From: Kiritimatiellia bacterium | GTDB lineage: Bacteria > Verrucomicrobiota > Kiritimatiellia > RZYC01 | DNA: 64,000 nucleotides | Assembly: GCA_028708815.1 (NCBI GenBank) | Contig: JAQVYB010000001.1 | Location: forward strand, 13,589-77,588 | Direction of reading: 5' to 3' | In this document: one piece after another, positions 12,803 to 64,000 of the stretch | How positions within the stretch are numbered: the first letter of the stretch is position 1 | Layout of the letters: each line of letters opens with the position of its first letter | Notes under the pieces: model-generated | The model's input: the letters and a program-made list of their open reading frames with translations, nothing else | Databases searched by the model: none | Told to the model about the DNA's origin: nothing | Translations under genes and position numbers: made by a program

Positions 12803-12887
12803 GGGCGAGTGGTGAAATTGGCAGACACGCCAGACTTAGGATCTGGTGCTTTACGGCTTGCGGGTTCGAGTCCCGCCTCGCCCACCA
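12803..12887 (+). tRNA. tRNA-Leu (anticodon TAG), 85 nt with long variable arm, CCA encoded
   Basis: Acceptor stem GGGCGAG/CTCGCCC, discriminator A then CCA. T-arm GCGGGTTCGAGTCCCGC. Anticodon stem-loop CCAGA-CTTAGGA-TCTGG gives anticodon TAG. Long variable arm is typical of Leu. Confidence 0.85.
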
Positions 12888-12911
12888 CGCTATACATGAT
12901 CGGATGTTGCG

Positions 12912-13253: not shown

Positions 13254-13370
13254 TGTGGCGTTTCTTTTTCATGTTTTTATTTTTATTAAGTTCCACCTGG
13301 AGTCCTGAAGAAACTCGAGAATGAGAGGGGTATTCTTCAGTGGACCCCATGTGGGCAAGTTATTACTTGA

Positions 13371-13385
13371 GCAGAAACAATGCCA
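13371..13385 (-). promoter_or_regulatory. Possible sigma-54 promoter (TGGCAT-N5-CTGC) for pilin paralog 1
   Basis: Minus-strand sequence TGGCATTGTTTCTGC keeps the conserved -24 GG and -12 GC. It partly overlaps the A/T tract of the upstream terminator. Confidence 0.35.
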
Positions 13386-13414
13386 AAAAAAGCCCCCGGA
13401 TTTCTCCGGGGGCT
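13384..13414 (-). terminator. Rho-independent terminator downstream of pilin paralog 2
   Basis: Minus-strand hairpin GCCCCCGGA-GAAA-TCCGGGGGC followed by TTTTTTT. Confidence 0.7.
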
Positions 13415-13443
13415 GTGAATCCAGGTTATCCCTGTTTCAGGAC

Positions 13444-13779
13444 TTAATCATTATAGGTAACCGAACCGCCGATCGTAGCCGGGAAGTTAATGGTCTTCGT
13501 GGATACGGTGTAATCGGTCTGGTTTGTTTTCTTCAGGTAAGGTGCGACGTCGGCCCATGTGACGGCCACGGTGCTGTTCGTTGCGCCATTATCCAGAGCC
13601 CACTCCTGAATGGCATCTTCAATCTTGGCAATATTGGCTTCTTTCGTTGTGCCCAGAGCCTTGGTGCGGGCCTTCATGAAAGAAGGAATACCAATAGCGG
13701 CCAGCAGTCCAATAATGGCGACTACGATCATAATCTCGACCAACGTGAAACCAGCTTTGCTTTTTTCTGTCTTTTTCAT
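13444..13779 (-). CDS. Type IV pilin / pseudopilin-like protein (major pilin paralog 2)
   Basis: MKKTEKSKAG|FTLVEIMIVVAIIGLLAAIGIPSFMKAR. RBS AAAGGAG lies 9 nt upstream of the ATG. Confidence 0.88.
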   Translation of the reverse strand: MKKTEKSKAGFTLVEIMIVVAIIGLLAAIGIPSFMKARTKALGTTKEANIAKIEDAIQEWALDNGATNSTVAVTWADVAPYLKKTNQTDYTVSTKTINFPATIGGSVTYND

Positions 13780-13925
13780 TGTCCCATGCTCCTTTGATTT
13801 ATTTTCAGTATTTCTTTTTTATCGTTGTTCATCCTGCGGAAAGGCCCGCAGGCAACTTTGCGCCGGCAGTGAGCCTCTCCGCTCCCCGCCGATCTGCCGG
13901 ATTCCCGGAACAGATGTACTATTCA

Positions 13926-13940
13926 GCAAAAGACGTGCCA
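13926..13940 (-). promoter_or_regulatory. Sigma-54 (RpoN) promoter, perfect -24/-12 consensus TGGCAC-N5-TTGC, driving pilin paralog 2
   Basis: Minus strand reads TGGCACGTCTTTTGC, about 150 bp upstream of the pilin ATG. A sigma-54 activator gene (14280..15665) is adjacent. Confidence 0.75.
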
Positions 13941-14279
13941 AATCTGGATAACGCCTGCTGAACGGTTTGAATTATAGAGCGAATCCGAAAAGGAGCAAGA
14001 AAATAGAAGGGAATGAGTGGGTTGAGCTTCTCAAAAATAAGAATTAATCAACTATGAGAAAACAGGAGGGTGCCTGGGAAGAGACCCGCAGCCCTGCACG
14101 TTTTGAGTAGGGCGAGGCCTTCGCACGAGCCGGCGTTGGGCGATTGACTGGACGCGGGGGGCGGCTCACCGGGACCTGACGTCGCCCAAGGCTATGTCAG
14201 GCACGCAGGTTCGCCCTGTCTTGGTTCTGAGCGGAATCCTTGGCTCCGAACAGAATCATATTGTTGCGCAAGGGGCCAT

Positions 14280-25322: not shown

Positions 25323-26441
25323 ATGAAAGAGGAGCAGACCGTGTGGGTGCCGTTTGACTTGTTGGAGTCTTTTATGGTGGATGTGTTTCGGTCGATCGGC
25401 GTGCCGGAGGGTGAGGCGCGGATTTGTGCGGATGTGCTGATCACGGCGGATCGGCGGGGCATTGATTCGCATGGGGTGGGGCGGTTGAAGCCCATCTATT
25501 ACGACCGCATTGTCAGGCAGCGTATTCAGAATCCGGTGACGCAGATCGAAGTGGTGCGCGATCGGAAGGCGACTGCCGTGCTGGATGGGCATCACGGCAT
25601 GGGGATGGTCATTGCGAAACACGCCATGGAGATGGCCATCGAAAAGGCCCGCACCTACGGCCTCGGCATGGTGGCGGTGCGGAATTCCACGCACTATGGC
25701 TTTGCCGCCTATTATCCGATCATGGCCTGCGAGGCGGATATGATCGGCGTGACCGGCACCAATGCACGCCCCTCCATGGCCCCCACGCTGGGGGTGGAAA
25801 ACATGCTCGGAACCAATCCGCTGGTTTTTGCCATGCCTTCCGACGAGCCCTTTCCCTTCACCAATGATTATGCCACGTCCATCATTCAACGCGGAAAAAT
25901 CGAGCAATATGCGCGCGAGGGGCGGGCTTGTCCGCCGGGTTTGATTATTGACCGGAACGGCGAAACCCTCACCGACTCCGCACGGATTCTCGAAGCGCTC
26001 ACCGCCGGCGAAGCGGCCCTGGCGCCGATCGGCGGGCTCTCCGAAGAAACCGGCAGCCATAAAGGCTATGGCTTTGCCACCGTGGTGGAAATCCTGAGCG
26101 CCGCGCTTCAGCAGGGCGCATTTCTGCAGATGCTCAACGGCATAGACGAGCACGGCGCACGCGCCCCGTATCGGCTCGGGCATTTTTTCATCGCCATGGA
26201 TATTGCCGCCTTCACCGAACCCGCCGCTTTCAAAAAAACCACCGGCGATATTCTGCGTGCTCTGCGTGCCTCCCGCAAGGCCCCCGGAAACGAGCGGATC
26301 TATACGCATGGAGAAAAGGAATATCTGAACGAAGTGGAGCGCCGTGATCGCGGCGCACCGGTGGTCCCTGCGTTGCAGCGGGAGATCATCGCCATGCGCG
26401 ATGAACAGCAGTTGAATCAATATCGTTTTCCCTTCGAGTGA
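25323..26441 (+). CDS. Ldh_2 family oxidoreductase (malate/L-lactate/L-sulfolactate dehydrogenase family)
   Basis: Motif [22 protein letters not shown] and overall Ldh_2 architecture. Start at MKEEQ; ORF-track start is 25293. Confidence 0.8.
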
Positions 26442-26445
26442 GCGC

Positions 26446-27939
26446 ATGAAAAAAAAGTTTGTGTTGGCATTGGATCAGGGGACGACCAGTTCGCGGGCGA
26501 TTCTCTTTGATGGCGAGGGGCGGGTGGTCGGCTCCGCGCAGAAGGCGTTTCGTCAGTCGTATCCTTCGCCGGGCTGGGTGGAACAGGATCCGATGGAAAT
26601 CTGGGCCACGCAAAGCGGGGTGATGACCGAAGTGATCGAGCGGGCGGGTCTGGGGACCGCACGGCTCGCGGCCATCGGCATCACGAATCAGCGCGAGACC
26701 ACGGTGATCTGGGAGAAGGGCACGGGGACACCGATTTATCCGGCCATCGTTTGGCAGTCGCGCCAAACCTCGGAACTCTGCGAGACGTTGAAAAGCGACG
26801 GACTCGCCGCGCATATACACCGTGTCACAGGGCTCGTGATTGATGCCTATTTCTCCGCCACGAAAATCCGCTGGATACTCGACCACGTACCCGGCGCGCA
26901 GGAACGCGCCGAACGCGGGGAACTCCTGTTCGGTACGGTGGACACCTGGTTGCTCTGGAAACTGACCGCCGGACGCTGCCACGCCACCGATTACAGCAAC
27001 GCCTCGCGAACCATGCTCTTTGACATCACCCGTCTCGAATGGGACCCCGTCCTGTTGGAACGCCTCCGCATCCCGCGGGCGATGCTGCCGGACGTGCGGA
27101 CCTCGAGCGAAGTCTACGGCCTGGCCCGCCTCGGCGGTCATGACGTACCCGTCGCCGGTATCGCGGGCGATCAGCAGGCAGCGCTCTTCGGGCAGGCGTG
27201 CTATTCAAGCGGTATGGCAAAAAACACCTACGGCACCGGCGCCTTTCTGTTGCAGCATACGGGCGGGCATCCCGTCTTCTCGGAGAATGGTCTCCTGACG
27301 ACCCTGGCCTGGGGCGTGGAAGGGACGGTTGACTATGCCCTCGAAGGGTCGGTCTTTGTCGCCGGGGCCGTTGTGCAGTGGTTGCGCGATGAACTCGGCC
27401 TCATTCGCGATGCCGCCGATACCGAATATTTCGCAGGCAAGGTGCCCGACACCAACGGCGTCTATCTTGTGCCCGCCTTTACCGGGCTCGGAGCACCCTA
27501 TTGGGATATGTACGCGCGCGGCATCCTCACCGGCATCACACGCGGAACCAACCGGGATCACCTCGTGCGCGCCGCGCTCGAGGCCGTTGCCTACCAGTCG
27601 GCCGACGTGCTGCGGCTCATGGCGGATGAAGCAGGTGCGCCCCTCCGGGAAGTCCGCGTGGATGGCGGTGCCGGTGCAAACAACTTTCTTATGCAGTTTC
27701 AGGCTGATGTGCTGGGCGTTCCGGTGCTGCGCCCGGAAATCACCGAAACCACCGCCCGCGGGGCGGCCTGTCTCGCAGGCCTGGCCGTGGGCCTCTGGAA
27801 AAACCGTACGGAACTGGCGGCCCTCTGGCGGCTTGAACGCTGCTTCGAGCCGCAAATGGAGCCCGCGCATCGGCAGGCGCTTCTCGAAGGATGGCGTCAG
27901 GCTGTCGCCCGGGCCCGCGGTAATCCGTCGGGTGCTTGA
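26446..27939 (+). CDS. glpK: Glycerol kinase
   Basis: [18 protein letters not shown]...[11 protein letters not shown]. 497 aa FGGY kinase. Confidence 0.92.
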
Positions 27940-28028
27940 TGGTTGCAGCTCCGAGTGCACTGATTCATTGCGATGTTTGGTGCGACAGCCCCCCGCCCGG
28001 CTCGGACGAAATGCCTCGCCCGAGACTT

Positions 28029-52433: not shown

Positions 52434-55079
52434 ATGCAACTGGACAGACTGACGATTAAAGCACAGGAAGCGGCACAGCAGGCGCGGCGTATGGCCGAAA
52501 CGCATGGCCACGGGGAAGTCGACGTGGAACACCTGGTGGGTGCGTTGGTTGAACAGGAGGAGGGGGTGGTCACACCGCTGCTGGCGCGGTTGGGCGTGGA
52601 TAAGAATCTTCTGCGTGAGCGCCTGGAGGCGGTGTTGGGCCGGCGTCCCCGCGTGGAAGGCGCTTCGGTGGAAATCCACATGTCGCGGCGGCTGAAAAAG
52701 CTTTTTGACGATGCCTTTGATCTGGCGGGAAAGATGAAGGATGAGTACGTCAGCACAGAGCATCTTTTTTTGGCTTCTTTGCAGCAGAGCGGAAGCGAGT
52801 GGAAAACAATAGCGGACGATTTGGACCTGACTTCCGATGCCGTCCTCAAGGCCTTGCAGGCGGTACGCGGGCGGCAGCGGGTCAGCGATCAGAATCCGGA
52901 GGATAAATACGAGGTAATGAAGAAGTATGGGGTGGACCTGACCGCAGCGGCCCGCAATGGTAAGTTGGACCCCGTCATCGGGCGGGACAATGAGATTCGC
53001 CGGGTGATTCAGGTGCTCTCGCGCCGCACCAAGAACAATCCCGTGCTGATTGGCGAGCCGGGGGTGGGGAAAACCGCCATAGCCGAAGGGTTGGCGCAGC
53101 GGATGGTGGCCGGCGATGTGCCTGAAGGGTTGAAGGATAAAAAAGTCATTTCACTGGATTTGGGTGCGATGCTGGCCGGTGCCAAGTTCCGAGGTGAATT
53201 CGAGGATCGCTTCAAGGCCTTTATGAAAGAGGTGATCGAGGCCGAGGGGGCGATAGTGCTGTTCATCGATGAGCTGCATACACTGGTGGGAGCGGGGGGT
53301 GCCGAAGGCGCGGTGGATGCCTCGAACATGATCAAACCCGCGCTCGCCCGAGGCGAATTGCGCTGCGTGGGCGCTACGACACTGGATGAATACAGGAAAT
53401 ACATCGAAAAAGACGCCGCGCTTGAGCGCCGCTTTCAGCCGGTGATGGTGGACGAGCCGTCGGTGGAGGATACCATTGCCATTTTGCGTGGTTTGCGCGA
53501 ACGGTATGAGGTGCATCACGGGGTGCGCATTCAGGATGCCGCGCTGGTGGCCGCCGCCAACCTTTCGGCACGGTACATCAGTGACCGCTTTCTGCCGGAT
53601 AAGGCCATCGACCTGGTGGACGAGGCGGCCAGCCGCCTGCGCATGGAAATCGACAGCCTGCCCACCGAAATTGATGAAGTCGATCGGCGTATCATGCAGC
53701 TTGAAATCGAGCGCCAGGCCTTGCGACTCGAAAAAGACGAGCCCTCGAAGGAGCGTTTGCAGAAGATTGAGGAGAATCTCGGGCATCTGCGCGAGGATAG
53801 CGCCCGCATGAAGCTGCACTGGACCAAGGAAAAGGAACTCATCGCCGAAATACGCGGTCTCACCCAGGCACTGGAACTGCTCCGTGGGGAAGAGGAAGCC
53901 GCCAAGCGCGACAACAATCTCGAGCGGGCCGCAGAAATCATGTATGACCGCATCCCGAAAACGGAAAAACAGGTCAAGGCCGCCCAGGCCCGCCTGAATG
54001 AACTGCAAAAAAATCTGAAGATGCTTAAAGAGGAAGTGGATGATGAAGACATCGCCCAGGTGGTGGCCTTCTGGACGCATATTCCGATCAGCCGTCTGCT
54101 CGAGAGTGAAAAAAGCAAGCTGCTGCAGATGGAAGATCGTCTACGCGAGCGGGTGATTGGGCAGGAGGAGGCGATTTCCGCCGTATCCAATGCGGTGCGT
54201 CGGTCCCGTTCGGGCTTGCAGGATCCGAACCGCCCGATCGGGTCGTTTGTTTTCATGGGGCCGACCGGGGTTGGTAAAACGGAACTGGCTCGTGCCCTGG
54301 CGGAATTTCTCTTCGATGATGAGCACGCGATGCTCCGGGTGGATATGTCGGAATTCATGGAGAAGCACAGCGTGAGCCGGTTGATCGGCGCGCCGCCGGG
54401 CTATGTGGGCTACGACGAGGGCGGCTACCTCTCCGAGCATGTGCGCCGCAAGCCGTATTCCGTCGTGCTCTTCGATGAAATCGAGAAGGCCCATCCGGAT
54501 GTCTTCAACATCATGCTTCAGATTCTGGATGACGGACGCCTCACCGATGGGCACGGGCGGACGGTGGATTTTACCAACACCATGTTGATTCTGACCTCGA
54601 ACATCGGCAGTTCCATCATTCACGAGACGCTTGAGTTGTATCCTCGTTTGCAGCGTGCCGATCCGGAATACCGGGAGATGGAGCGAAAGGTGCAGGAGGC
54701 CCTGCGGGCGAATTTCCGTCCGGAATTTCTAAATCGGATTGATGAGATCATCATCTTCCACAGCCTGACGCGCGAGCAGTTGACCCGTATTGTGGATATC
54801 CAGATCAAGCGGGTGCAGGGCTACCTGGCGCCGCAGCATATTCAGCTCACGCTGAGCGATGAGGCGCGGAAATTTCTGGCCGAAGAGGGATATGATCCGG
54901 CCTTTGGGGCCCGCCCGCTGAAGCGGGTGATTCAGCGGCGGATTCTGGATCGGTTGGCGGAGGAGATTCTGCGCGGAACGGTTCAGCCCGGTTCAAACCT
55001 GACGGTTTCGGTGGGTGAAGAACGAGGCGGAAAGGTGATTGAGTTTGTGCCGGAAGACGATGGGAAGAGAGCAAAGTAA
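52434..55079 (+). CDS. clpB: Chaperone ClpB (Hsp104-type disaggregase)
   Basis: Two AAA+ modules ([15 protein letters not shown]; [15 protein letters not shown]), a long coiled-coil M-domain, 881 aa. Confidence 0.95.
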
Positions 55080-55277
55080 ACCCGCAGGCGGTCGGTCGAA
55101 TAAACAAAGTGTTGAAAAGCGTTGATTCCGCGGGAGCCGGTTTCGTTAAATAGACGATGTTCAAAACAGGCGGACGGATCAAGGAGTGAAGGCGTATGGA
55201 ATCGATTTTGTCGGGTCTGATGATTATCGGTATTTTTTTTATGGTGTGGTACATTACACGAGGCATGTAGGGAAAGG

Positions 55278-55460
55278 GTGTTTATGAGCAAAAAGATGAT
55301 ATGGGCGCTGTTGATGCTGGCGCTGGTGGTGATTGTGGTGGTGCTGAGTCGCGGGAACACCGAGGTGAACCTGCTGTTCACAAAAGTAAGCGGAATGAAA
55401 TCGTTAATTTTTCTGGCCTTCACGGCCTGGGGCGTGGTGATCGGCCTGTTGCTGAAGTAA
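55278..55460 (+). CDS. Small membrane protein (LapA/DUF1049-like, 60 aa)
   Basis: Two hydrophobic helices MIWALLMLALVVIVVVL and LIFLAFTAWGVVIGLLL. Confidence 0.4.
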   Translation: MFMSKKMIWALLMLALVVIVVVLSRGNTEVNLLFTKVSGMKSLIFLAFTAWGVVIGLLLK

Positions 55461-55464
55461 GCGC

Positions 55465-56043
55465 ATGACTTTCGACGCCTCCATAGAGCACTTGGCCGAT
55501 TGGATTGATGAGGCCGCTTCGATTGTCGTATTAACCGGGGCGGGCATTTCCGTGCCCTCCGGCATCCCTGATTTTCGATCTGCGGGTGGACTCTACTCCC
55601 TGGAGCAGAATCGCAATGTCTTTGATTTGGATGCCTTTCGTGAAGACCCGACGTGGTATTATCGCTTTGCCAGGGAGTTTTATCCGTTGGTGTGGTCGGC
55701 TGTTCCCAATATCGCTCACCGCATGACGGCGGGCTGGGAACGCGGCGGGCGCAAGGTGGAAGTAGTGACCCAGAACGTGGATGATTTGCATCAGCGTGCC
55801 GGTTCTTCGAGCGTGTATCCGTTGCACGGGGATATGATGCAGAGCACCTGCCTGCGTTGTGGTCGGCAAACAGAGGCGATGTCCCTGAATGAAGTCATCC
55901 GCCGCGGCGAAGTGCCGCATTGTACGTGCGGTGGCGTTTATAAACCGAATATCACTTTTTTCGGGCGATTTGATTCGTGTCTTCGAGGCCTTACGGGACC
56001 AGGCCGGGATTCAAGCTTAACCAGCAACAGGGAAATGCAATGA
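55465..56043 (+). pseudogene. Sir2-family NAD-dependent deacylase (CobB-like), 3'-truncated and frameshifted after the Zn-ribbon
   Basis: N-terminus IVVLTGAGISVPSGIPDFRSAGGLYS, QNVDDLHQRAG, HG and zinc CxxC...CxC are intact through ...KPNITFFG. Sir2-like sequence then continues in another frame (DLIRVFEALRDQAGIQA) and stops at about 56030. The C-terminal Rossmann half is absent. Confidence 0.5.
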
Positions 56044-57236
56044 GTAGAGAAAACAACGATGGATGGATCAGCCAAGGGGTGAAATTGATCGACTCGGAGT
56101 CGGTGTATATTGATCCGGCTGTTCCGGCGGGGCATATTGCGGAGGGCGTGACGATTTATCCCGGATGCCGGATTATGGGGGAGAAGACGGCGATTGGGCC
56201 GGGTTGCGTGATTGGACGCGAAGCGCCCGCCACGGTGCTGAACTGTCAGTTGGCCTCCAAGGTGGATCTGGCGGGCGGGTATTTTGAAGAGTCGGTGTTT
56301 TTGTCGAAGGCCTCGGCGGGGAGTGGTGCGCATATTCGTCCGGGCTGTCTGCTCGAAGAAGAGGCGGGCGTGGCGCACAGCGTGGGCTTGAAGCAGACCG
56401 TGTTTCTGCCCTGCGTGACAGCGGGAAGCCTGATCAATTTCTGCGATGCACTGATGGCGGGCGGTCGGAACCGAAAAGAACACAGTGAAATCGGATCATC
56501 GTATATTCATTTTAATTTTACGCCGCATGGAGACAAGGCCACGCCGTCGCTGATCGGTGATGTGCCGCGTGGCGTGCTGATGGATAATGATCCCGTATTT
56601 CTGGGCGGGCAGGGCGGCTTGGCCGGGCCGTGCCGTGTGGCGTTCGGCACCGTGATTCCGGCGGGCTCGGTGCTGCGCAGTGATGTGCTGCAACCGGGTA
56701 TGCTGCATCTTCCTGCCGCGTCGTCGCCCAAAACGGAGTGTTACGATATGCGTGTGTATAAACGGATTCGGCGGGTGGCGCAGAACAATCTGCATTATAT
56801 CGGCAACATATACGCGCTGCGGGAGTGGTATCGGAACGTGCGGTCGCGCATGATGACCGAGACCGTGGCGGACCGGGCGTGCTGCACCGGCGCCATTCGC
56901 GTGCTGAACCTGATTCTGGATGAACGGATGAAACGCCTGAAACAGTGGACCGAAAAACTGGGCGTATCGTATGAGTTGATTCAGGAGAATGCCGCTCTGC
57001 GCGAGTGCGCGGAAGAGCAGGTGGAGTGGATTCGGCAATGGCCCGAGCGCGAGACGTTGCTGAAGACGCTCTTGGGGCAGGAGGCCGATGCGACCGGCAT
57101 CGCGGAGATTGCCACCTCGGCCGCAAATCATGCAAAGGATGGTTTTCTGACCTGGGTGAAGGGCCTGGACGATGCGCAGAAAACGATCATTCGCGCCTGG
57201 TTGGATGAACTGGTTTTGCGTTTTTATGTACGGTGA
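56040..57236 (+). CDS. Left-handed beta-helix (hexapeptide-repeat) domain protein with C-terminal helical domain, function unknown
   Basis: Repeating [LIV]-G-x-x-x-x-I hexapeptide pattern (GVTIYPGCRIMGEKTAIGPGCVIGREA...). Start at MSRENN; ORF-track start is 55977. Confidence 0.55.
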   Translation: MSRENNDGWISQGVKLIDSESVYIDPAVPAGHIAEGVTIYPGCRIMGEKTAIGPGCVIGREAPATVLNCQLASKVDLAGGYFEESVFLSKASAGSGAHIRPGCLLEEEAGVAHSVGLKQTVFLPCVTAGSLINFCDALMAGGRNRKEHSEIGSSYIHFNFTPHGDKATPSLIGDVPRGVLMDNDPVFLGGQGGLAGPCRVAFGTVIPAGSVLRSDVLQPGMLHLPAASSPKTECYDMRVYKRIRRVAQNNLHYIGNIYALREWYRNVRSRMMTETVADRACCTGAIRVLNLILDERMKRLKQWTEKLGVSYELIQENAALRECAEEQVEWIRQWPERETLLKTLLGQEADATGIAEIATSAANHAKDGFLTWVKGLDDAQKTIIRAWLDELVLRFYVR

Positions 57237-57248
57237 ATGTTGCCGGGG

Positions 57249-57860
57249 TTATTCGTACATCCGCAGCTTCTTCATGGTTTCAATGGTGTCGGGATATAAC
57301 TCGCCCAGCGCGGGTCCGTTGGTCATGGAGATGTCGTCCAGATGAAACCCGTGGGCGCAGAAAACGCCGTAGAGTCCCCAGGCATCGGGGGAGTCGTCGG
57401 CCATGCGGAAGCCCATCCAGGTGTTTGCCGGGATGATGATCTGCGGTTGTTGGCCCAGGCGCGGGTCGGGACCGAGGACGAAGGTTTTGAAGGAACCATC
57501 GGGATAAATGAGCATTTGATTCATGGGTGCGCCGGCATGGTAGGCGAGCAATTCGTCACAGGTGATTTTGTGCCAGGGATCAAAGAGGCCGCCGGACATG
57601 AGATAATAGATGCTGCTGGCGGCGGCGCGGGGTTTATCGATGTCAGCCTTCACGTTGCATTCATAGAGTTCTTTGTAGTAACCGATGCAGGCGCCGTCGT
57701 TCATGGGGATCAGCCCAAGGCCGTCGATGATTTCCTGTCGGGTTGGCGCGGGTGTCGGTTCTGATGCGCAACAGGCGGCATGAAGGGGCTCGGCCGTCAC
57801 CAAGACGTTAAATATAAACAGAGCGGCTCCGGTTGTTATGAATCGTGTTGAGTTCTTCAT
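57249..57860 (-). CDS. Secreted cupin-like protein, hypothetical
   Basis: Signal peptide MKNSTRFITTGAALFIFNVLVTAEPLHA. Polypyrimidine Shine-Dalgarno GGAGGAGGAGGAGG upstream. Confidence 0.5.
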   Translation of the reverse strand: MKNSTRFITTGAALFIFNVLVTAEPLHAACCASEPTPAPTRQEIIDGLGLIPMNDGACIGYYKELYECNVKADIDKPRAAASSIYYLMSGGLFDPWHKITCDELLAYHAGAPMNQMLIYPDGSFKTFVLGPDPRLGQQPQIIIPANTWMGFRMADDSPDAWGLYGVFCAHGFHLDDISMTNGPALGELYPDTIETMKKLRMYE

Positions 57861-58148
57861 GGTTGTTCCTCCTCCTCCTCCTCCTTCTTTATGCAGTGTG
57901 AACGATACAGTCAGTACCTTAAAACTTCACTTCCTGCAAAAAAATATAAAGGAGAATTTCATGCATTAAAACAATGAATATTCATCACGGCACGGGCTTT
58001 AGGCGCGTGTGATTCGGCCCTGAAGGGCCGCCAATGTTTCCAAAATCGCGCCGGCGATTTTCACTAAAGCGGGCTGGAACCCGCCGATAACTCACTCCCC
58101 AATGCGGAAAATATCCATACACGTTAACTGGGTTGCGGGGCACCCGCT

Positions 58149-60692
58149 TTAGATCGGCTGTCCCTGTTTGTCGATGTGGATGTCGAGGGCGTGAATGATG
58201 GGTTTTGCTTTCGGCTGTGTGGTTCGGCAGGGCAGGGCGGCCATCTGCATGAGTTCGCACATGACGCCGTCGATCACTTCGCCGGGAACGCCGTAGAAAA
58301 GGAAATTCACGGGCATGCCATCGGCGATAAGGATGATTTCGCGCTGATCGGATTCGGCGGATTTTGAATGGAACGTGAAACGGATACGCGTTCCGAGATT
58401 CATGTGCGTCAGCGGGTCGCGCAGGTCGTAGGTATGCAGATCGACATCGCGTCCGCCGATGGTGGGCGTCGAGGCATCTCGGAGTTCCTGAATCCAGCGG
58501 GAGATATCCGAGAATTCGGCTGTTTTGGTTGAGCCGCTGGCCAGATAAATTCTTTTTTTGCGTCCGTGCAGCAGGAGGCGCTCCATATGCCCGGCTTGTA
58601 ATACGGAGACGCCTGTGATGCCCAGAAACACGTCCAGTTCCAGAAAAATATCGTCGGGGATATCGTCCAGCCGCACATATTCCGGAGCATTGCAGAGGAT
58701 GGCGCTGGATTCGGGCGAGGCCTGGAGGTCGGTGCCGATGGCGTGGTTGTCCGGCAGGCGCTGTGCAAAGAGGGAAAGCAGAAAGCGTCCGATGTTGCCG
58801 CGCGAGCCGATCACGGCGCCGTGCCGGTTGAAGAGACAATCCCCCAGGCCGTTCATCACCAGTTCGGTGGTCATCAGCAGCGAGAGTGCGCAGGCTCGGG
58901 CTTCTTCCACGTTCTTGCAGATGGATAGGGCGATGGTATAGGCCGGGAAATGAAGGCGACCGAAGGCCTGCTGCACCTCGAGCAGTTGGTCGTATCCGTT
59001 GCGCGTGTGTTCCACCGTGGCGTGGACAACCCCGGCCAGCCAGTCGGACAGTGGGACCTTGGTCGGGTCGGGTTCCGAGGGGTCTTTCCAGGTCTCGGGC
59101 GCGATATGGAAGTGGCTCATAAAATCGGCGACCGTTCTGTTTTCCAGGCAGAATTGATTCATCAGCGGCGCGAGGTAGCCGCCATCTTCAATGAGCAGGA
59201 CCTGGCCGTCGCGCTCTTTGGCCCGGATGACTTCCTGAAAGAAAATGTGCGCCGTAGCCAGTCGCATAGCGGGTGTATATTCCACCGGTTGGCTGTGCAG
59301 GTGTTCGTCCAGATGTTCCAATCCGGTGGTTGGGGAAAACTGATGCGACAGCACATACATGCCGCACAACAGGTCGTCGGAATCCATTTGCTGCAACGCA
59401 TGAAAGGAGAACCGCTCTTCCGGCAGGGCCAGCAGCGCCTCCACGAAGGAGTCCGGCACAATGCCTTTGTAGCGGATGAAGAGCGTGTGCAGCGCAGCGC
59501 AGCCTGTTTCGCTCAGCGCCTGAATGAGACCCAGTACTTCCGAGGTGAGGTGATGCACGAGCACAACGGATGTTTTGGCAAACAGGTCGTGGTTTTGCTC
59601 TGCGAATGCGTGCAGGGCGGGCATGCGTTCGAGATGGGTTTTCAGCGAGGGAATTTCCCGTCGTTCATCCAGATTGATGTTCAGGCAGGTGTTGCGGCGG
59701 GAAAGGTCCAGAAAGGCCCGCCGTCCACCGGAAATCACTTCAATGACCCGGTGTTCATTCAGGATGGCGGCGGCACTGGTGTTTTCGAGCAAGAGGAGGG
59801 CGCGCCCGATCAGTTCGATGATATCGCGCTGCTGTCCGAGCAGGAACGGCACCATCCGGGTGGAATCCCAACGGAAGCGGAGCGTGTTCACAGCGTCCAG
59901 TCCGTTGCCGGCCAGCATGTCAAAGAGGGCAGACTGGCGTCCGGGCACTTCGACATATTCTTCCCGCTGATTCTGGCATTCATGATGGATGGCCGTGGCG
60001 ATGATGGAGGCGAGGGCATCCACATCCTGGAGCAGCAGGTGGTCGCCGCAAGCCTCCGAGGCCCGGTGCGGGATGCGCTTCAGGTTCAGGCGCGGTTTCC
60101 AGGTGTGGTCCAGCGTCAGGCGGATGAAACGGTTTTCGCGTTCGTATTCAAACAGGATTTCAAAGCCGGTTTCCACGGGTTCGCGCGGGAAGGTAAAGAG
60201 CCAGGAGGAGGCGGTCTCTGTCTGTATTTCAGCGGATTTATCGCCCGACTGTCGTTCCTTCCAGAGGTGCTGCACGGCGCTGAATACGCGCAGGAGGCAT
60301 TGATAAAAGAAATCGCGGTCGTCGGTCAGCAGGCGAGCCGGTTCATAGAGTGCAGAGAGCGAGACGTAGCGGATATCCATCTCGGCCAGCTCGGGGGTCA
60401 GGAGTTCATCGACCGGTTGGTGAATGAGGAGGTCGGTGTCTGAGGTTCGTATTTGTTCAAAGAATTGATTGGCCAGCGTTTGGACAAACTGCGGAATGCC
60501 TTTGAAGACCGTACAGGTGGAGAGGTCGATTTGATAATGTCCGTCCTCCTGCATGAGCAGGGAACTGCCCAGAAAGGTCGGGCGGGCGTTGGGTGTGGTA
60601 ACGCGTGGTCTGGCTTCAAAGCGTTCCGCCGTACGCAGGCGGCTCAGAATGCCATTGATGTTTTTCTTTGCCGGGTGTTGTTGATTATTCAT
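58149..60692 (-). CDS. Large (847 aa) cytoplasmic protein of unknown function, third gene of a MinD-like/HAMP operon
   Basis: Long ORF with no recognisable motifs. Overlaps the upstream HAMP gene stop by 8 nt, implying translational coupling. Confidence 0.6.
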   Translation of the reverse strand: MNNQQHPAKKNINGILSRLRTAERFEARPRVTTPNARPTFLGSSLLMQEDGHYQIDLSTCTVFKGIPQFVQTLANQFFEQIRTSDTDLLIHQPVDELLTPELAEMDIRYVSLSALYEPARLLTDDRDFFYQCLLRVFSAVQHLWKERQSGDKSAEIQTETASSWLFTFPREPVETGFEILFEYERENRFIRLTLDHTWKPRLNLKRIPHRASEACGDHLLLQDVDALASIIATAIHHECQNQREEYVEVPGRQSALFDMLAGNGLDAVNTLRFRWDSTRMVPFLLGQQRDIIELIGRALLLLENTSAAAILNEHRVIEVISGGRRAFLDLSRRNTCLNINLDERREIPSLKTHLERMPALHAFAEQNHDLFAKTSVVLVHHLTSEVLGLIQALSETGCAALHTLFIRYKGIVPDSFVEALLALPEERFSFHALQQMDSDDLLCGMYVLSHQFSPTTGLEHLDEHLHSQPVEYTPAMRLATAHIFFQEVIRAKERDGQVLLIEDGGYLAPLMNQFCLENRTVADFMSHFHIAPETWKDPSEPDPTKVPLSDWLAGVVHATVEHTRNGYDQLLEVQQAFGRLHFPAYTIALSICKNVEEARACALSLLMTTELVMNGLGDCLFNRHGAVIGSRGNIGRFLLSLFAQRLPDNHAIGTDLQASPESSAILCNAPEYVRLDDIPDDIFLELDVFLGITGVSVLQAGHMERLLLHGRKKRIYLASGSTKTAEFSDISRWIQELRDASTPTIGGRDVDLHTYDLRDPLTHMNLGTRIRFTFHSKSAESDQREIILIADGMPVNFLFYGVPGEVIDGVMCELMQMAALPCRTTQPKAKPIIHALDIHIDKQGQPI

Positions 60693-61722
60693 TTTCCAAT
60701 CGCAGTTGAGAGGCTTTGGATTTCAGGGTTTTAAAATAGTCGGTTCCGGTGATGCGTGCGACTTCTTTCTGCTGTTTCACCTTGTTGATCTCGATGTGCA
60801 GTTCCTGCACCTGCGATTGCAGCAGGCGTTCGCGTTCGTGAACTTTGGCCGCCATGCATTGGAAGGCGGAGGCCAGTTGTCCGAGTTCGTCGGGTCGCGT
60901 GCAAAGGGAGTCGAGTCCGGTAATCGCCTGATAGTCGCCCGCCGCCACTTGATCGGAAACCTGAGTGAGGTGAATGATGGGGGCGGTGAGCCGTTTAATG
61001 AAAAAGGACGCGGCGATGAAGCCAATCACAATCACCAGCAGGGCCATAATCCCGATCACATACAAATCATTCGCCGCCACCGAAGAGAGCGCATTCCGTC
61101 CCCAGACCGTAACCATCGCCGCCGCATACGTGCCCAGTACGGCCAGACTGGTGAGGTAGGTCGAAAGCAGAAACGTACCGGTGGGGATGGACGGCTTCAG
61201 CAAGCCGAACAGCAGCATAAAAAAGGGAATCAGAATCACGGCAAAGAGCGCATCGGTGATAAATATGGGCAAAAAAAGCTGAAAAAAGGCTGCTTTCAGC
61301 GGGAGATGCCCGTACAGCACCTCCATGCCCGACGAAAACAGAAAGGGGAGCAGCGCCGCGAGAATCAGGAGGAAATACACTTTTTGCATGGCGCGAAGAT
61401 TCGTGACCACGCGCGCGCCGGGGCCCCCGGCCAAGCCCGGAATGAGGCCCATGAGTCCATTGGCCAACGCCCAGTACCAGAGCGGTATCGGATTCTTCGC
61501 CGCCAGCACATAGCCCAGACTGTCGCCTGCGGCCCCGGTAACAAAGCCCGCGAGCGGTCCGAAATACAGCCCCAGGAACATGGGAATGCAGACCTGTGGA
61601 CGCAATTCGGCGAACGAGCAGCCGGGCAGAAAGTGGATGCCGGAGAGATAATTCATCACGCCATACAGGGCCACCCCGACAAAACAGCAGAAATAAACTG
61701 AAGCGGAGGCGTGACGTTTCAT
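60685..61722 (-). CDS. Polytopic membrane protein (ECF-transporter S-component-like helical bundle) with C-terminal HAMP domain and coiled coil
   Basis: At least 6 TM helices in the first 240 aa. HAMP-like segment FFIKRLTAPIIHLTQVSDQVAAGDYQAI...ELGQLASAFQCMAAKV, then a coiled coil. Confidence 0.65.
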   Translation of the reverse strand: MKRHASASVYFCCFVGVALYGVMNYLSGIHFLPGCSFAELRPQVCIPMFLGLYFGPLAGFVTGAAGDSLGYVLAAKNPIPLWYWALANGLMGLIPGLAGGPGARVVTNLRAMQKVYFLLILAALLPFLFSSGMEVLYGHLPLKAAFFQLFLPIFITDALFAVILIPFFMLLFGLLKPSIPTGTFLLSTYLTSLAVLGTYAAAMVTVWGRNALSSVAANDLYVIGIMALLVIVIGFIAASFFIKRLTAPIIHLTQVSDQVAAGDYQAITGLDSLCTRPDELGQLASAFQCMAAKVHERERLLQSQVQELHIEINKVKQQKEVARITGTDYFKTLKSKASQLRLENE

Positions 61723-61726
61723 GGAC

Positions 61727-62485
61727 TTATTGCCCGGTGAGTTGGTTCATGAGGCGTTGATAATGTTGAGTGGTTGGATGATTCGGGAAGCGGCAGACAA
61801 ACAGATCGTGGCTGGCCAGCAGCATCATCTCGTCGCTGTGCGGAATGGCGACCGCCGGCGGAATGCCGTAGGCCGCTTCGATGCGTTTGGAAAGTTCGTC
61901 GATATTTTGCGAGGGCGGAATTTTGTTGGCCAGCAGCAGAATGCGGGGCACTTCCAGCTCGCGCGCCACTTCGATGGTGATGCCGGTGCCCTGATAATCC
62001 TGATAATCCGGACGCATTACAATCACCAGGCTGTTGGAAAGGGCCAGCGAGAGGAGCGTTTCTTCGTTCAGGCCGGGATGCGTATCGATCAGCAGGTAAT
62101 CCAGTTTCAGGTGCGTGATCAGACTGCGAAAGCCTTCGCTCAGCAGGTTGATGTCGTACCCTTCCTGAATGATCCGGGCAATGTCGCCCGCATTGACGCT
62201 GGAGGGAATGAGAAAAATGCGACCGGTGGCGGCTGGTCCGAGCCGATCAGTGACGTCGTAGGCGGTCTCCTGGATTTCGCAGCGACCCCAGAGAAAATCA
62301 TTGAGCACGTGGGTGAAGGATTCCTCGTCCTTTCCGAAAATCACATGAATGCCCGGCGACTGAATATCCGTATCCACAATTCCGACGCGCTTCCCGCTCA
62401 GGGCCATCAGGGCGGCGAGGTTGGCCGTGGTGTTGGATTTCCCGGTACCCCCGCGAAACGAATGGACGGATATGATCTCGGGCAT
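61727..62485 (-). CDS. MinD/ParA-family P-loop ATPase
   Basis: Deviant Walker A SFRGGTGKSNTTANLA. Walker B-like LLIDTHPG. RBS AGGAAA upstream of MPEIISVH. The ORF-track start at 62548 is probably an extension. Confidence 0.8.
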   Translation of the reverse strand: MPEIISVHSFRGGTGKSNTTANLAALMALSGKRVGIVDTDIQSPGIHVIFGKDEESFTHVLNDFLWGRCEIQETAYDVTDRLGPAATGRIFLIPSSVNAGDIARIIQEGYDINLLSEGFRSLITHLKLDYLLIDTHPGLNEETLLSLALSNSLVIVMRPDYQDYQGTGITIEVARELEVPRILLLANKIPPSQNIDELSKRIEAAYGIPPAVAIPHSDEMMLLASHDLFVCRFPNHPTTQHYQRLMNQLTGQ

Positions 62486-62809
62486 AGAGCCGTTTCCTGC
62501 CTTCCTGTGTGAATGATCCTTGTTTACGGGTTTGATACTATAGCGCAAGGATCAGGTTGTACAGGAGGAAAGCGCCGTCCCAGTCATTGGACATAAGCTC
62601 GTAACAGAAGCCTCGATGCGCCGGGGACACCGAGCCTCTTTGGATTCGTAGCATTTGAGTGTTCCTGCACCCCGTCCGGGGCGCTTGAGTTCTTTTGTTT
62701 TCCTATTCCCGGGGTTATTCGCCCCCGGGCTGTATTCCCAGACCCCTCCGGGGTCATTCCTGGAATGTGTCTGGATGCCGCGGTTGGACGAGTAGACGAA
62801 TGCCGATGA

Positions 62810-64000
62810 TCAATTCGCCGGGTAAAGCAGCATGGCTTCGGCTTCTTTCGGCGTTTCGATGTGCGGTTTATATTTTTCCACTTCGTTATGAATCCGTGCC
62901 GCCAACTCTTCGTCATTCAGTTGCACAAGCAGTTCATCCAGTTCTTCGATGTTATAGGGCGGTTGGGCGTATAAAGCGATAAGTTTGAGTTCAAGTGCTT
63001 TTCTGTATACTTTGATAGTATTTCGAATACCTTCCTGACGATTGTTATATGCGGAGACTTCTTTTATCTCAATGTTTCCGTCATCTTTCAGATACATATT
63101 TGCATCTGGGGTCCAATTGTCATCTTGTAATGATAGCATTACATTCCAGGCTTTTACCCATTGTTCCACCTGAACCCTTCGAGATGAAAAGTCTTGGGAA
63201 CCAGAGGTAAGAGTGCTAATAGAATCACAGATGTTGATCGACGAACTATGATCAGTTTTGTCAAACATAAATCGTAGGTGGTCTTGTAAAAACCGTGATT
63301 CGTCGTCGGAACAGTCATATTCCTGATTCAGAGAGGTAGACCATGCTGATTCATTTACGATATTATTTTGAGAAGAAACCTTTTTCTTGAATCTATCGAA
63401 AAGGATTTCCCTGGTAGTTGGATCATAAATATAGGCCTTTGCTGGTATTTTATCCTTTGTAACGGTTACATTTCCAAAAGCGTCAGAGGTAAATATTTGC
63501 TGGGCGGTTCCAAGCAAATGAATATCTTTTCCGTTTACGGTGTAACAAACAGGAATATCAAGCTGAAGATATCCGATGCCATACTCCTTCGGAACAGTAT
63601 TCATTATAATCGCATCATCTTTACCTACGGCAACCGGGGTTTCATTAGCAACAGGAGCAGGCAACCACATCCAACCAGATGCTCCATGAGTGTTGGTTGC
63701 AAATTTTGTCCACAAGCCTGTTGCAAGCGAAGGCATACAATCAATTTCTCTGAAGGCGACATGTTCAAAAGAAACATCGAAAGGCGGTACGTAGTATTTT
63801 GTAGTAAGTGCGACGCTAGAGTATCCATATATATGCCCTACACCTTCTTTTGCGTCTTCCAGATAATAATTAGTGGGGGCTACAATAGTGAGCTCGTTAG
63901 AATAAACATAACCGTCATATTTCCCCAGTATACACATGGTGCCTTTTTCGGGAGGAGCAACAGCAGATGCTGTAGTGCCACGTGTATGGTAGTTACTGCC
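62810..64000 (-). CDS. Partial ORF (5' end beyond window) encoding a protein of unknown function in a low-GC segment
   Basis: The reading frame stays open to the window edge. GC about 40% against about 60% elsewhere. No recognisable domain. Confidence 0.5.
   Translation of the reverse strand, partial: GSNYHTRGTTASAVAPPEKGTMCILGKYDGYVYSNELTIVAPTNYYLEDAKEGVGHIYGYSSVALTTKYYVPPFDVSFEHVAFREIDCMPSLATGLWTKFATNTHGASGWMWLPAPVANETPVAVGKDDAIIMNTVPKEYGIGYLQLDIPVCYTVNGKDIHLLGTAQQIFTSDAFGNVTVTKDKIPAKAYIYDPTTREILFDRFKKKVSSQNNIVNESAWSTSLNQEYDCSDDESRFLQDHLRFMFDKTDHSSSINICDSISTLTSGSQDFSSRRVQVEQWVKAWNVMLSLQDDNWTPDANMYLKDDGNIEIKEVSAYNNRQEGIRNTIKVYRKALELKLIALYAQPPYNIEELDELLVQLNDEELAARIHNEVEKYKPHIETPKEAEAMLLYPAN

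What the first reader, a model, noticed from the sequence alone, without database searches (positions are those of the whole stretch)
62550..64000. Abrupt compositional shift (about 60% to about 40% GC) with CCCGGG-rich micro-repeats at the boundary and a partial unknown ORF
From about 62.9 kb to the window end the sequence becomes markedly AT-richer than the preceding 62 kb. The intergenic stretch 62620-62770 just before the shift carries 3-4 degenerate direct repeats of (T)ATTCC...CCCGGGG, with the palindromic CCCGGG core recurring three times. The ORF on the minus strand (62810 to beyond 64000) has no recognisable domain and continues past the window edge. This pattern is typical of a horizontally acquired island boundary, possibly an att-like or regulatory repeat.
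Basis: seen in the sequence. Interest (0 to 1): 0.55.

Follow-up and report, generated by a model that had tools for sequence, protein, structure and literature searches.

The report
Foreign low-GC patch inside one gene
The GC drop is real, but it is a ~1.5-kb foreign-looking stretch forming the body of one strain-specific secreted-protein gene in a swap-prone slot of a Kiritimatiellae genome, not the edge of a large island; this is an ordinary event, though the gene carries an uncharacterised protein domain.

Summary
The GC shift is confirmed: 0.566 falls to 0.41, z = -6.3, and tetranucleotide distance is about 11 sd from the window norm. A Logan contig of the same genome (L001) runs 1,095 nt past the window edge. 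It shows the low-GC tract is only about 1.5 kb (window 62866 to about 64381) and lies wholly inside one ORF.

That ORF is a 630-aa signal-peptide protein (MDD4734523.1, Kiritimatiellae MAG). Its first ~100 codons, and the HEAT-repeat gene abutting its start, have host-like GC3 (0.62 and 0.61). The rest has GC3 of 0.33-0.42.

Four closely related assemblies and one more distant relative lose homology or synteny at the start of the neighbouring ParA-like operon. A 98.8%-identical sister MAG carries a ParE/antitoxin pair there instead. The locus is therefore a strain-variable slot.

No integrase, tRNA, flanking direct repeat or attC was found. The "CCCGGG repeats" are two exact CCCGGG and four CCGGGG forming three or four short GC hairpins in the gene's 3' spacer. 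They cluster locally but recur nowhere else examined, and are most simply terminator or insulator stem-loops.

The protein is not a true orphan. Residues 200-432 (an Ig-like segment plus a 160-aa beta-sandwich) belong to an unannotated family usually found at protein C-termini, sometimes on RHS or PAAR scaffolds.

The parts
62866..64000 (.). Low-GC, compositionally foreign tract (GC ~0.40). It continues to about 64381 in window-equivalent coordinates, so it is ~1.5 kb in all and lies wholly inside the ORF.
   Evidence: Three-segment maximum-likelihood change-points on L001 at 715 and 2230 correspond to window 64381 and 62866. Segment GC is 0.545 / 0.403 / 0.554, LLR 27. GC profiles. Tetranucleotide distance 0.546 vs 0.245 +/- 0.027.
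62810..64000 (-). 3' 397 codons (residues 235-630 plus stop) of a 630-aa strain-specific secreted protein, MDD4734523.1 / PHP44_00295, from a Kiritimatiellae MAG.
   Evidence: Translation. 100% match to P0001. The signal peptide MKHTPLYLLPTLLILFAPLQHARA|QD is read directly from the sequence. GC3 is 0.62 for codons 1-90 and 0.33-0.42 afterwards, against 0.659 +/- 0.054 for window genes.
63890..64000 (-). C-terminal part (residues 235-271) of the Ig-like segment (residues ~200-275) that precedes the conserved domain.
   Evidence: Aligned to all family members. Beta strands with pLDDT 72-91.
63407..63889 (-). Conserved ~160-aa beta-sandwich domain (residues 272-432) of an unannotated family. Invariant P, H, P, V, F, D, G and K; near-invariant E, H and I-P.
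62813..63406 (-). 198-aa mostly helical C-terminal extension (residues 433-630) found only in this member of the family.
   Evidence: In nearly all relatives listed the module ends within a few residues of the C-terminus. Helices at pLDDT ~40-70. No similarity to anything, including the partner ORFs of other family loci.
62486..62809 (.). Spacer between the orphan's stop codon and the ParA-like ATG. Its GC is host-like (~0.55-0.58). The part upstream of ~62566 is unique to this strain.
62612..62634 (-). Hairpin 1. It is the only terminator-like site: an 8-bp stem followed by the tail GCUUCUGUUA.
   Evidence: dG -15.1 kcal/mol, z = -1.8.
62667..62684 (.). Hairpin 2, GCGCCCC-GGAC-GGGGUGC, containing CCCCGTCCGGGG.
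   Evidence: dG -15.8 kcal/mol, z = -2.9..
62708..62729 (.). Hairpin 3, CCCGGGG-N8-CCCCGGG. It holds both exact CCCGGG sites.
   Evidence: dG -17.2 kcal/mol, z = -3.2..
62741..62755 (.). Hairpin 4, GACCCC-N3-GGGGUC, which is marginal.
   Evidence: dG -13.3 kcal/mol for the 37-nt context, z = -1.1..
62535..62566 (-). Diverged copy of the promoter/operator-like motif conserved upstream of the ParA-like operon in relatives (TCCTGTACAACC at 62555-62566; TATAGTAT at 62535-62542).
   Evidence: Alignment with L002-L005. The same motif is present in L011.
61727..62485 (-). ParA/MinD-family (KGGVGR-type) ATPase gene, the first gene of the conserved operon that forms the fixed edge of the variable slot.
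   Evidence: Pfam and NCBIfam. DNA homology of L002-L005 (87-99% identity) ends at 62486, and translated synteny with the more distant L011 ends at about 62497.

Best explanation
The window ends inside a strain-specific accessory gene. That gene occupies a variable slot immediately upstream of a conserved ParA-like/HAMP/847-aa operon in a Kiritimatiellae genome. The gene is compositionally mosaic. Its first ~100 codons (Sec signal peptide plus a disordered linker) and the HEAT-repeat gene abutting its start codon have native composition. Codons ~100-613 are a ~1.5-kb tract of low-GC DNA, most likely acquired horizontally and joined in frame to a native 5' end; this step is inferred.

The foreign part encodes beta-sandwich domains followed by a unique helical tail. 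The beta-sandwich part includes an Ig-like segment plus a 160-aa module that belongs to an unannotated family. The product is most likely an exported surface, binding or effector-type protein; this is also inferred.

The CCGGGG-rich 'micro-repeats' are three or four short GC-rich stem-loops in the gene's 3' untranslated spacer. They most plausibly end or stabilise its transcript and insulate the ParA-like promoter just downstream. This is inferred with low certainty. They are not attachment sites.
For: Composition. GC is 0.566 vs 0.41. GC3 is 0.33-0.42 in the gene body, against 0.659 +/- 0.054 in 45 window ORFs. Tetranucleotide distance is ~11 sd out. Change-points fall at window 62866 and ~64381.

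Return to native composition: L001 is 99.93% identical to the window with one mismatch, and it encodes MESD + P0001 exactly. It shows GC 0.545 and GC3 0.62 for codons 1-90, and 0.61 for the upstream HEAT_2 gene, whose stop lies 1 nt before the ATG.

Variable slot: L002 (98.8% identity over 9.8 kb), L003, L004 and L005 all lose homology at 62486. L011 (73% aa identity) loses synteny at ~62497. L002 and L003 carry a ParE_toxin/Unstab_antitox pair with GC 0.46-0.48 there.

Not an assembly chimera: two assemblies agree across both junctions, and one intact reading frame spans them.

Protein: signal peptide. Confident beta-rich core, pLDDT 80-98. 59 remote homologs.

Hairpins: they sit between the stop codon and the next promoter. 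Two are clearly more stable than shuffles (z = -2.9 and -3.2), and one has a terminator-like tail.
Against: The far edge of the slot was not seen; only 1,095 nt beyond the window could be recovered. It is therefore unknown whether the HEAT gene and the native-looking 5' end are conserved in sister strains.

No donor lineage was identified. Composition alone cannot prove transfer.

Three of the four hairpins lack a U-tract on the gene's strand. The spacer as a whole folds no better than shuffles (z = -0.3). There is no homologous spacer to test for covariation.

The window ORF set used for the GC3 baseline is a crude greedy map and contains some antisense shadows.
Confidence: 0.65

Rival explanations
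1. Polymorphic-effector cassette swap. The gene is a Sec-exported member of an undescribed polymorphic toxin/effector family, and its variable C-terminal part (codons ~100-630) was replaced by recombination with an incoming cassette, as in Rhs, CdiA and MafB C-terminal displacement. That would explain a native 5' end joined to a foreign 3' body.
For: The Ig + beta-sandwich module sits at the extreme C-terminus of nearly all relatives. Those relatives include an RHS-repeat/DUF6531 protein (P0046, RHS_repeat E = 3e-28) and PAAR proteins (P0042; P0029 weak). L006 holds a full-length 730-aa member followed by a fragment, a frameshifted copy and a complete short copy. Module copies are followed by a conserved ~185-aa partner ORF in L006 (twice, 39% identical) and in unrelated L013 (E = 4e-12). 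A conserved junction motif (TSET..P.DR.R.K.GVGE) precedes the module in short ORFs. The composition is mosaic. Definition of the system: PMC4436062.
Confidence: 0.2
2. Edge of a large horizontally acquired genomic island that continues beyond the window, with the CCCGGG-rich repeats acting as an att-like site.
For: There is an abrupt GC drop and foreign tetranucleotide usage. The segment is strain-variable. CCGGGG motifs cluster locally at the boundary.
Against: GC returns to 0.545 about 380 nt beyond the window, and the next gene has host-like GC3. The 3' compositional edge lies inside the ORF, not at the repeats, and the spacer itself has host-like GC. There is no matching repeat at the other edge, no tRNA nearby, and no integrase in the 10 kb on the conserved side.
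Confidence: 0.05
3. Assembly or binning artefact: a chimeric contig joining DNA of a low-GC organism to the Kiritimatiellae genome.
For: This is metagenome-assembled DNA. The composition changes abruptly. Assemblies of relatives break near this locus.
Against: Both compositional junctions lie inside one uninterrupted 630-codon reading frame. A separately generated Logan contig reproduces both junctions with a single mismatch in 1,525 nt. Native-composition DNA flanks the tract on both sides.
Confidence: 0.04
4. Integron-type or other site-specific gene cassette, with the hairpin region acting as an attC-like recombination site. The sister strain's toxin-antitoxin pair would be a typical cassette cargo.
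For: There is alternative cargo at one position, with a TA module in the sister strain. Structured GC-rich DNA lies just 3' of the ORF.
Against: No R''/R' (RYYYAAC...GTTRRRY) pair occurs in the spacer, in L002 1-1260 or in L001 1-420. There is no long imperfect palindrome, and the whole-spacer fold is at shuffle level. The gene is 1.9 kb with a native-looking 5' end and is tightly coupled to an upstream gene. No IntI-like gene was seen.
Confidence: 0.03
5. A native, old gene whose low GC is maintained by selection or by local mutational bias rather than by transfer.
For: The gene is in frame with, and tightly coupled to, native upstream sequence. Surface proteins are sometimes compositionally odd.
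Against: The deficit is at third codon positions (0.33-0.42 vs 0.66) and switches abruptly around codon 101-133. The gene is absent from a 98.8%-identical sister strain at this position. Apart from a near-identical Logan copy, nothing in 5.8 billion proteins matched it at E <= 0.001 in the word-indexed search.
Confidence: 0.05

Closest known systems
Strain-specific accessory genes in chromosomal integration hotspots (variable slots between conserved core genes; concept from comparative genomics, own knowledge)
   Same: A fixed conserved flank (the ParA-like operon) has different cargo in near-identical strains: the orphan gene here, and a ParE/antitoxin pair in the sister MAG. The cargo has lower GC than the genome. 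Assemblies fragment at the site.
   Different: Only one flank of the slot was seen. The foreign tract is a single partial gene fused in frame to native sequence, not a multi-gene insert. No mobility gene was detected.
Polymorphic toxin systems with C-terminal cassette displacement (Rhs, CdiA, MafB; reviewed in PMC4436062)
   Same: A native N-terminal part is joined to a compositionally foreign C-terminal part. The conserved module occupies the C-terminal tip of RHS and PAAR proteins elsewhere. Arrays of short 'orphan' copies, each followed by a small partner ORF, occur in L006.
   Different: The window locus has no downstream partner or immunity ORF, no orphan copies and no trafficking domain beyond a Sec signal. 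The module has a generic beta-sandwich fold with no known toxin relative. The partner proteins are conserved across loci, whereas immunity proteins are usually highly variable.
Intrinsic (rho-independent) terminators and 3'-UTR stabilising stem-loops
   Same: Short GC-rich stems lie between a stop codon and the next promoter. Two are significantly more stable than shuffled sequence, and one has a U-containing tail.
   Different: Three of the four lack a U-tract on the gene's strand. Four hairpins in tandem is more than a simple terminator needs. Function was not tested.
REP / MITE-like repetitive extragenic palindromes
   Same: Clustered GC-rich palindromic units lie in an intergenic spacer. 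Sister lineages do carry a conserved 28-nt palindromic element (L002 79-106 and 196-222; L011 18792-18877, 96% identity).
   Different: The window's hairpin motifs occur once only in 64 kb, are absent from all related loci, and are unrelated to the L002/L011 element.

Membership tests
Genomic island (classical) | Atypical base composition relative to the host genome | tested here: met
   GC 0.41 vs 0.566. GC3 0.33-0.42 vs 0.66. Tetranucleotide distance ~11 sd out.
Genomic island (classical) | Large multi-gene segment (typically >10 kb) | tested here: not met
   The low-GC tract is ~1.5 kb and lies inside one ORF. GC is back at 0.545 by ~380 nt beyond the window.
Genomic island (classical) | Integrase or other mobility gene at an edge | tested here: inconclusive
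   None in the 10 kb on the conserved side, and none in the 1.1 kb recovered on the other side.
Genomic island (classical) | Insertion next to a tRNA/tmRNA gene with flanking direct repeats (att sites) | tested here: not met
   The nearest tRNA is at 37.8 kb. No repeat of the spacer motif occurs at the other compositional edge.
Genomic island (classical) | Present or absent among closely related strains | tested here: met
   The sister MAG, 98.8% identical in the flank, has a ParE/antitoxin pair instead.
Polymorphic toxin system (PMC4436062) | Multidomain protein with an N-terminal trafficking region and a polymorphic C-terminal toxic domain | tested here: inconclusive
   The Sec signal peptide and mosaic composition fit. 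The module is at the C-terminal tip of RHS and PAAR proteins elsewhere. Here it is followed by 198 further residues, and toxicity is unknown. The fold is a generic beta-sandwich.
Polymorphic toxin system (PMC4436062) | Immunity gene immediately downstream of the toxin gene | tested here: not met
   Downstream lie a 324-nt spacer and then the conserved ParA-like operon, which is also present in strains that lack this gene. The in-frame tail is unrelated to the partner ORFs of L006 and L013.
Polymorphic toxin system (PMC4436062) | Orphan C-terminal modules with cognate partners nearby | tested here: not met
   There is no second module copy in the 64-kb window or in L001. This feature is met in L006 for other family members.
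Integron gene cassette | attC site (R''/L''...L'/R' imperfect palindrome) 3' of the ORF | tested here: not met
   No RYYYAAC-N40-135-GTTRRRY in the spacer or in the variable parts of the related loci. The spacer fold is at shuffle level.
Integron gene cassette | IntI integrase and cassette array | not testable with these tools
   The rest of the contig was not retrievable.
REP / MITE repeats | Many dispersed copies per genome | tested here: not met
   The motifs occur only at 62.6-62.8 kb within the 64 kb and are not in the related loci. The 22-mer has no match in JGI metagenome contigs. The whole genome was not available.
Intrinsic terminator | GC-rich stem-loop followed by a U-tract on the transcribed strand, downstream of a stop codon | tested here: inconclusive
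   One site (62634..62612, minus strand) passes the scan, at a rate equal to shuffles. Hairpins 2 and 3 are stable (z about -3) but lack U-tracts.
Known RNA family (Rfam 15) | Covariance-model match at the gathering score | tested here: not met
   Only the two tRNAs in the window reach it. In the spacer, the best match has E = 2.2, far below gathering.

The most novel reading that the evidence does not exclude
The Ig-like + 160-aa beta-sandwich module (P0001 residues 200-432) defines an undescribed family of exchangeable C-terminal effector modules, paired with a conserved ~185-aa helical partner protein. These modules are delivered on RHS, PAAR or Sec-signal scaffolds and propagate as orphan cassettes. 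The window's gene would be a fresh cassette replacement, in which a low-GC module-bearing segment displaced the 3' end of a native exported protein. That would make the GC step inside the gene a visible recombination scar.
Probability: 0.2. Interest if true: 0.55.

Novelty: new member of a known kind. Interest (0 to 1): 0.3.

Why it matters
For the scan, this shows that a striking GC cliff at a window edge need not be an island boundary. Here it is a 1.5-kb foreign patch inside a single gene, and about 1 kb of extra sequence was enough to settle that.

Biologically it is a clean example of strain-level cargo exchange at a fixed chromosomal slot in an uncultured Kiritimatiellae lineage, and of an apparently in-frame mosaic gene.

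The one lead worth keeping is the protein. It exposes an unannotated module family (no Pfam, no PDB relative, confident AF2 model) that recurs at the C-terminal tip of RHS and PAAR proteins and travels with a conserved partner gene. If experiments showed it to be an effector-partner pair, that would add a new family to the catalogue of inter-bacterial conflict systems.

Tried and rejected
1. Extending the contig. Exact look-ups of P0001 and of the ParA-like protein found no contig on record. The GTDB species-representative scan found no relative of P0001. JGI metagenome scans with a spacer 22-mer and a degenerate ParA 5' pattern gave 0 matches and then only the already-known L005 contig. Only the Logan contig L001 gave extra sequence, 1,095 nt.

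2. Far edge of the slot. A search with the 129-aa HEAT fragment returned nothing, not even the source protein, so the far boundary could not be traced in sister genomes.

3. RNA element in the spacer. No Rfam match was found at the gathering score or at a permissive E-value. The whole-spacer fold is at shuffle level on both strands.

4. att or direct repeat. L001 has only 11-27-nt chance-level repeats, none involving the spacer motif apart from an 11-mer.

5. attC. The regex found no candidate.

6. Dispersed repeat. The motifs are not enriched in the window, and the spacer has no copy in the window or in any locus.

7. Protein function by sequence. Pfam, NCBIfam, PADLOC, PHROGs and PDB sequence or profile searches were all negative for the orphan and its family.

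9. 'Fused partner' idea for the 198-aa tail. BLASTP, phmmer and hhalign against the L006 and L013 partner ORFs were all negative, with hhalign probability 0.1%.

10. Profile-based locus search. The word-indexed profile search returned only 6 proteins and little taxonomy.

11. Source study. No paper mentions the runs or assemblies.
Full report
**1. The observation**

The GC shift is real. The window has GC of 0.50-0.65 in every 1-kb bin except the last, which is 0.407. At 200-nt resolution GC falls from 0.54-0.585 at 62600-62899 to 0.365-0.45 from 62900 onward. The last 1,100 nt lie 6.3 sd below the distribution of all other 1,100-nt windows (mean 0.565, sd 0.025, minimum 0.492). The tetranucleotide L1 distance of the low-GC tract from the window average is 0.546. 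Other 1.6-kb chunks give 0.245 +/- 0.027, with a maximum of 0.331.

The minus-strand ORF is also as described. Its stop codon is at 62810-62812 and it is open to the window edge. It has no Pfam, NCBIfam, PADLOC, PHROG or PDB sequence match.

The repeats are only partly as described:
- Exact CCCGGG occurs twice (62708, 62724), not three times. It is under-represented in the window as a whole (18 seen, 28.6 expected).
- CCGGGG occurs four times (62621, 62676, 62709, 62748).
- Five CCGGGG/CCCCGG sites fall within 140 nt. The maximum elsewhere in the window is three, and only 1 of 300 Markov-1 simulations reaches five. The cluster is therefore locally unusual.
- ATTCCYRG occurs three times in 60 nt but is not enriched window-wide.
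- Structurally these are three or four short GC hairpins rather than direct repeats.

**2. What lies beyond the window**

The ORF is 100% identical to residues 235-630 of MDD4734523.1 (PHP44_00295). This is a 630-aa hypothetical protein of a Kiritimatiellae MAG, on a 90,407-nt contig. That contig could not be fetched.

A 2,620-nt Logan contig from run SRR22315502 (L001) could be fetched. It matches window 64000..62476 with a single mismatch (at window 62495). It encodes exactly MESD + P0001, and it extends 1,095 nt beyond the window.

On L001, a three-segment maximum-likelihood fit puts the GC change-points at L001 715 and 2230. These correspond to window 64381 and 62866, with segment GC of 0.545 / 0.403 / 0.554. 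The low-GC tract is therefore about 1.5 kb and lies entirely inside the ORF.

Codon-position analysis agrees:
- Codons 1-90 have GC3 of 0.62.
- Codons 91-630 have GC3 of 0.33-0.42.
- The 45 ORFs of a crude window gene map average 0.659 +/- 0.054.

The 2-lnL support interval for the 5' junction is codons 101-133. Upstream, a HEAT_2-repeat gene (E = 5e-7) with GC3 of 0.61 ends 1 nt before the NCBI start codon, so the two genes are tightly coupled. The spacer that carries the hairpins has host-like GC of 0.525-0.585.

**3. Comparison with relatives: a variable slot**

The cluster of the neighbouring ParA-like protein led to four other assemblies. Their identity to the window on the conserved side is:

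| Locus | Source | Identity to window |
|---|---|---|
| L002 | Sister MAG GCA_028681075.1 | 98.8% over 9,772 nt (52715-62486) |
| L003 | Logan SRR22315503 | 96.3% |
| L004 | Logan SRR16951081 | 87.2% |
| L005 | GCA_011640815.1 | 88.7% |

All four lose detectable homology at the same base, 62486, one nucleotide upstream of the ParA-like ATG. A multiple alignment shows a weakly conserved promoter/operator-like motif (TCCTGTACAnCC ... TATAGnAT ... TCATTCAC) extending to about 62566. Beyond that the sequences are unrelated.

In L002 and L003 the position is occupied by a ParE_toxin/Unstab_antitox pair on the opposite strand, with GC of 0.46-0.48.

A species-level relative from the GTDB set (L011, 73% aa identity) keeps the three-gene operon and the downstream Cupin_5 gene. 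It again loses synteny at the ParA-like start, and it has a scaffold gap next to the same promoter motif.

All the related assemblies break or gap within 0.1-1.2 kb of this point. That is what strain heterogeneity at a hotspot produces.

The sister strain's cargo, L001's 5' part and the window's spacer have no other copy in the window or in any other locus.

**4. Tests of the island/att interpretation**

- No tRNA lies nearer than 37.8 kb.
- The 10 kb on the conserved side encodes ClpB, SIR2, Cupin_5 and the ParA/HAMP/847-aa operon, with no mobility gene.
- No repeat of the spacer motif occurs near the other compositional edge.
- No attC-like R''/R' pair is present.
- No Rfam family matches the spacer.
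- The 261-nt spacer folds no better than shuffles on either strand (z = -0.31 and -0.21).

Taken individually, hairpins 62667-62684 and 62708-62729 are clearly more stable than shuffles (z = -2.9 and -3.2). Hairpins 62612-62634 and 62741-62755 are marginal. The first of these four is the only site with a terminator-like tail on the gene's strand.

The simplest reading is that they are 3'-end stem-loops of the orphan's transcript, placed just upstream of the ParA-like promoter. This is an inference from position and stability only.

**5. The protein**

The sequence shows a Sec-type signal peptide (MKHTPLYLLPTLLILFAPLQHARA|QD). An exhaustive phmmer search of 1.84 billion representatives found 59 remote relatives (E from 3.6e-11 to 1e-3, 23-35% identity). 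All of them align to residues ~200-432.

The shared region is an Ig-like segment plus a ~160-aa domain. The domain has invariant P, H, P, V, F, D, G and K, and near-invariant E, H and I-P. In nearly all the relatives it ends within a few residues of the C-terminus. Only the window's protein carries a further 198 residues.

The family has no Pfam model and no PDB sequence relative.

Structure prediction and fold searches gave the following:
- AF2 with the family alignment gives a confident beta-rich core (pLDDT 80-98 for residues 200-430), a disordered N-terminal ~130 residues, and a helical tail of moderate confidence.
- The domain-only model has pLDDT 90.2 and pTM 0.86.
- Foldseek on the full model finds only tandem Ig-like chains.
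- Nothing viral matches.

N-terminal partners in relatives include RHS repeats with DUF6531 (P0046), PAAR (P0042; P0029 weakly), TSP3/Binary_toxB-like repeats, a lectin-like domain, and a family-2 glycosyltransferase.

In L006, a 730-aa member is followed on the same strand by a module fragment, a frameshifted copy and a complete short copy. The last two copies are each followed by a ~195-aa signal-peptide helical protein; these two proteins are 39% identical to each other. A homolog of that partner (E = 4e-12) also follows the PAAR-like member in the unrelated locus L013.

This organisation resembles polymorphic toxin loci as defined in PMC4436062. The window's own locus fails the defining tests, however. 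It has no downstream partner or immunity ORF and no orphan copies. Its in-frame tail is unrelated to the partner family.

**6. Verdict**

Shown:
- A ~1.5-kb compositionally foreign tract lies inside one intact gene.
- Composition is native on both sides.
- The gene sits in a segment that differs between near-identical strains.
- No island hallmarks appear in the sequence that could be examined.

Inferred:
- The tract was acquired horizontally and joined in frame to a native 5' end.
- The gene product is an exported beta-sandwich protein with a binding or effector role.
- The hairpins act as terminator or insulator elements.

Its 'island boundary / att-like repeat' interpretation is not supported, although 'horizontally acquired' is.

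As a genomic phenomenon this is ordinary. The residual interest lies in the uncharacterised module-plus-partner family that the gene belongs to.

Noticed in passing
window 58149-62485 (-): A conserved three-gene operon: a KGGVGR-type ParA/MinD ATPase, a membrane protein combining an ECF-transporter S-component-like domain with HAMP, and an 847-aa protein with no Pfam, NCBIfam, PADLOC or PHROG match. It is syntenic down to a relative with 73% aa identity. Its function is unknown.
   Followed up: partly
window 62535-62566; L002 1130-1200; L004 55-120; L011 ~8115-8170: A promoter/operator-like motif, TTCATCCTGTACAnCC ... TATAGGATG, is conserved upstream of the ParA-like operon across lineages. 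The window's copy is much more diverged (~60%) than the adjacent coding sequence, which is 98.8% identical to L002. This suggests the recombination breakpoint lies at the start codon.
   Followed up: partly
L002 79-106 and 196-222; L011 18792-18819 and 18851-18877: A 26-28-nt inverted-repeat element (GCTCGCGAGGACGCTCGCCCTCCA...) is 96% identical between two lineages whose proteins are only ~73% identical. It looks like a REP/MITE-type palindrome and is absent from the 64-kb window.
   Followed up: no
L006 964-7046 (ENA ERZ28573538 scaffold_23905), also L007 and L008: A same-strand array: a 730-aa family member, a 248-aa ORF, a module fragment, a frameshifted module copy, a 192-aa partner, a complete 264-aa module ORF, a 196-aa partner, and then a YkuD L,D-transpeptidase gene. 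GC dips to 0.38-0.41 in the middle of the array.
   Followed up: partly
L013 7001-9270 (JGI 3300044712): The PAAR-like family member P0029 is followed by a 181-aa ORF without a signal peptide. That ORF is homologous to the signal-peptide-bearing partners in L006, sharing the motif VAPP...P(E/A)SI(K/E)DP..R..Y. Partner localisation seems to track the delivery mode of the module protein.
   Followed up: no
Junction before the module in short family ORFs (P0011, P0018, P0020, P0022, P0036, P0069-P0072); P0001 residues ~195-215: A conserved pre-module motif, (I/L)TSET.A..P.DR.R.K.GVGE, marks where the short ORFs begin. It is reminiscent of the demarcation motifs of exchangeable C-terminal cassettes.
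   Followed up: no
window 12803-14279: Next to tRNA-Leu (12803-12887) lies a mildly low-GC stretch (0.499 for 13001-14000). It holds two small prepilin-type N-methylation-motif genes (12912-13253 and 13444-13779, both minus strand) and the hairpin CCCCGGATTTCTCCGGGG at 13394.
   Followed up: partly
window 26001-28000: This is the highest-GC stretch of the window (0.61-0.65), overlapping a ~498-aa ORF at 26446-27939. It was not examined.
   Followed up: no
L001 3-392 / search: The HEAT-repeat fragment upstream of the orphan found no protein at all in the 5.8-billion-protein collection, not even a parent protein from the NCBI MAG. The upstream gene may be unannotated or annotated as a pseudogene in that record, or the word index may have missed it.
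   Followed up: no
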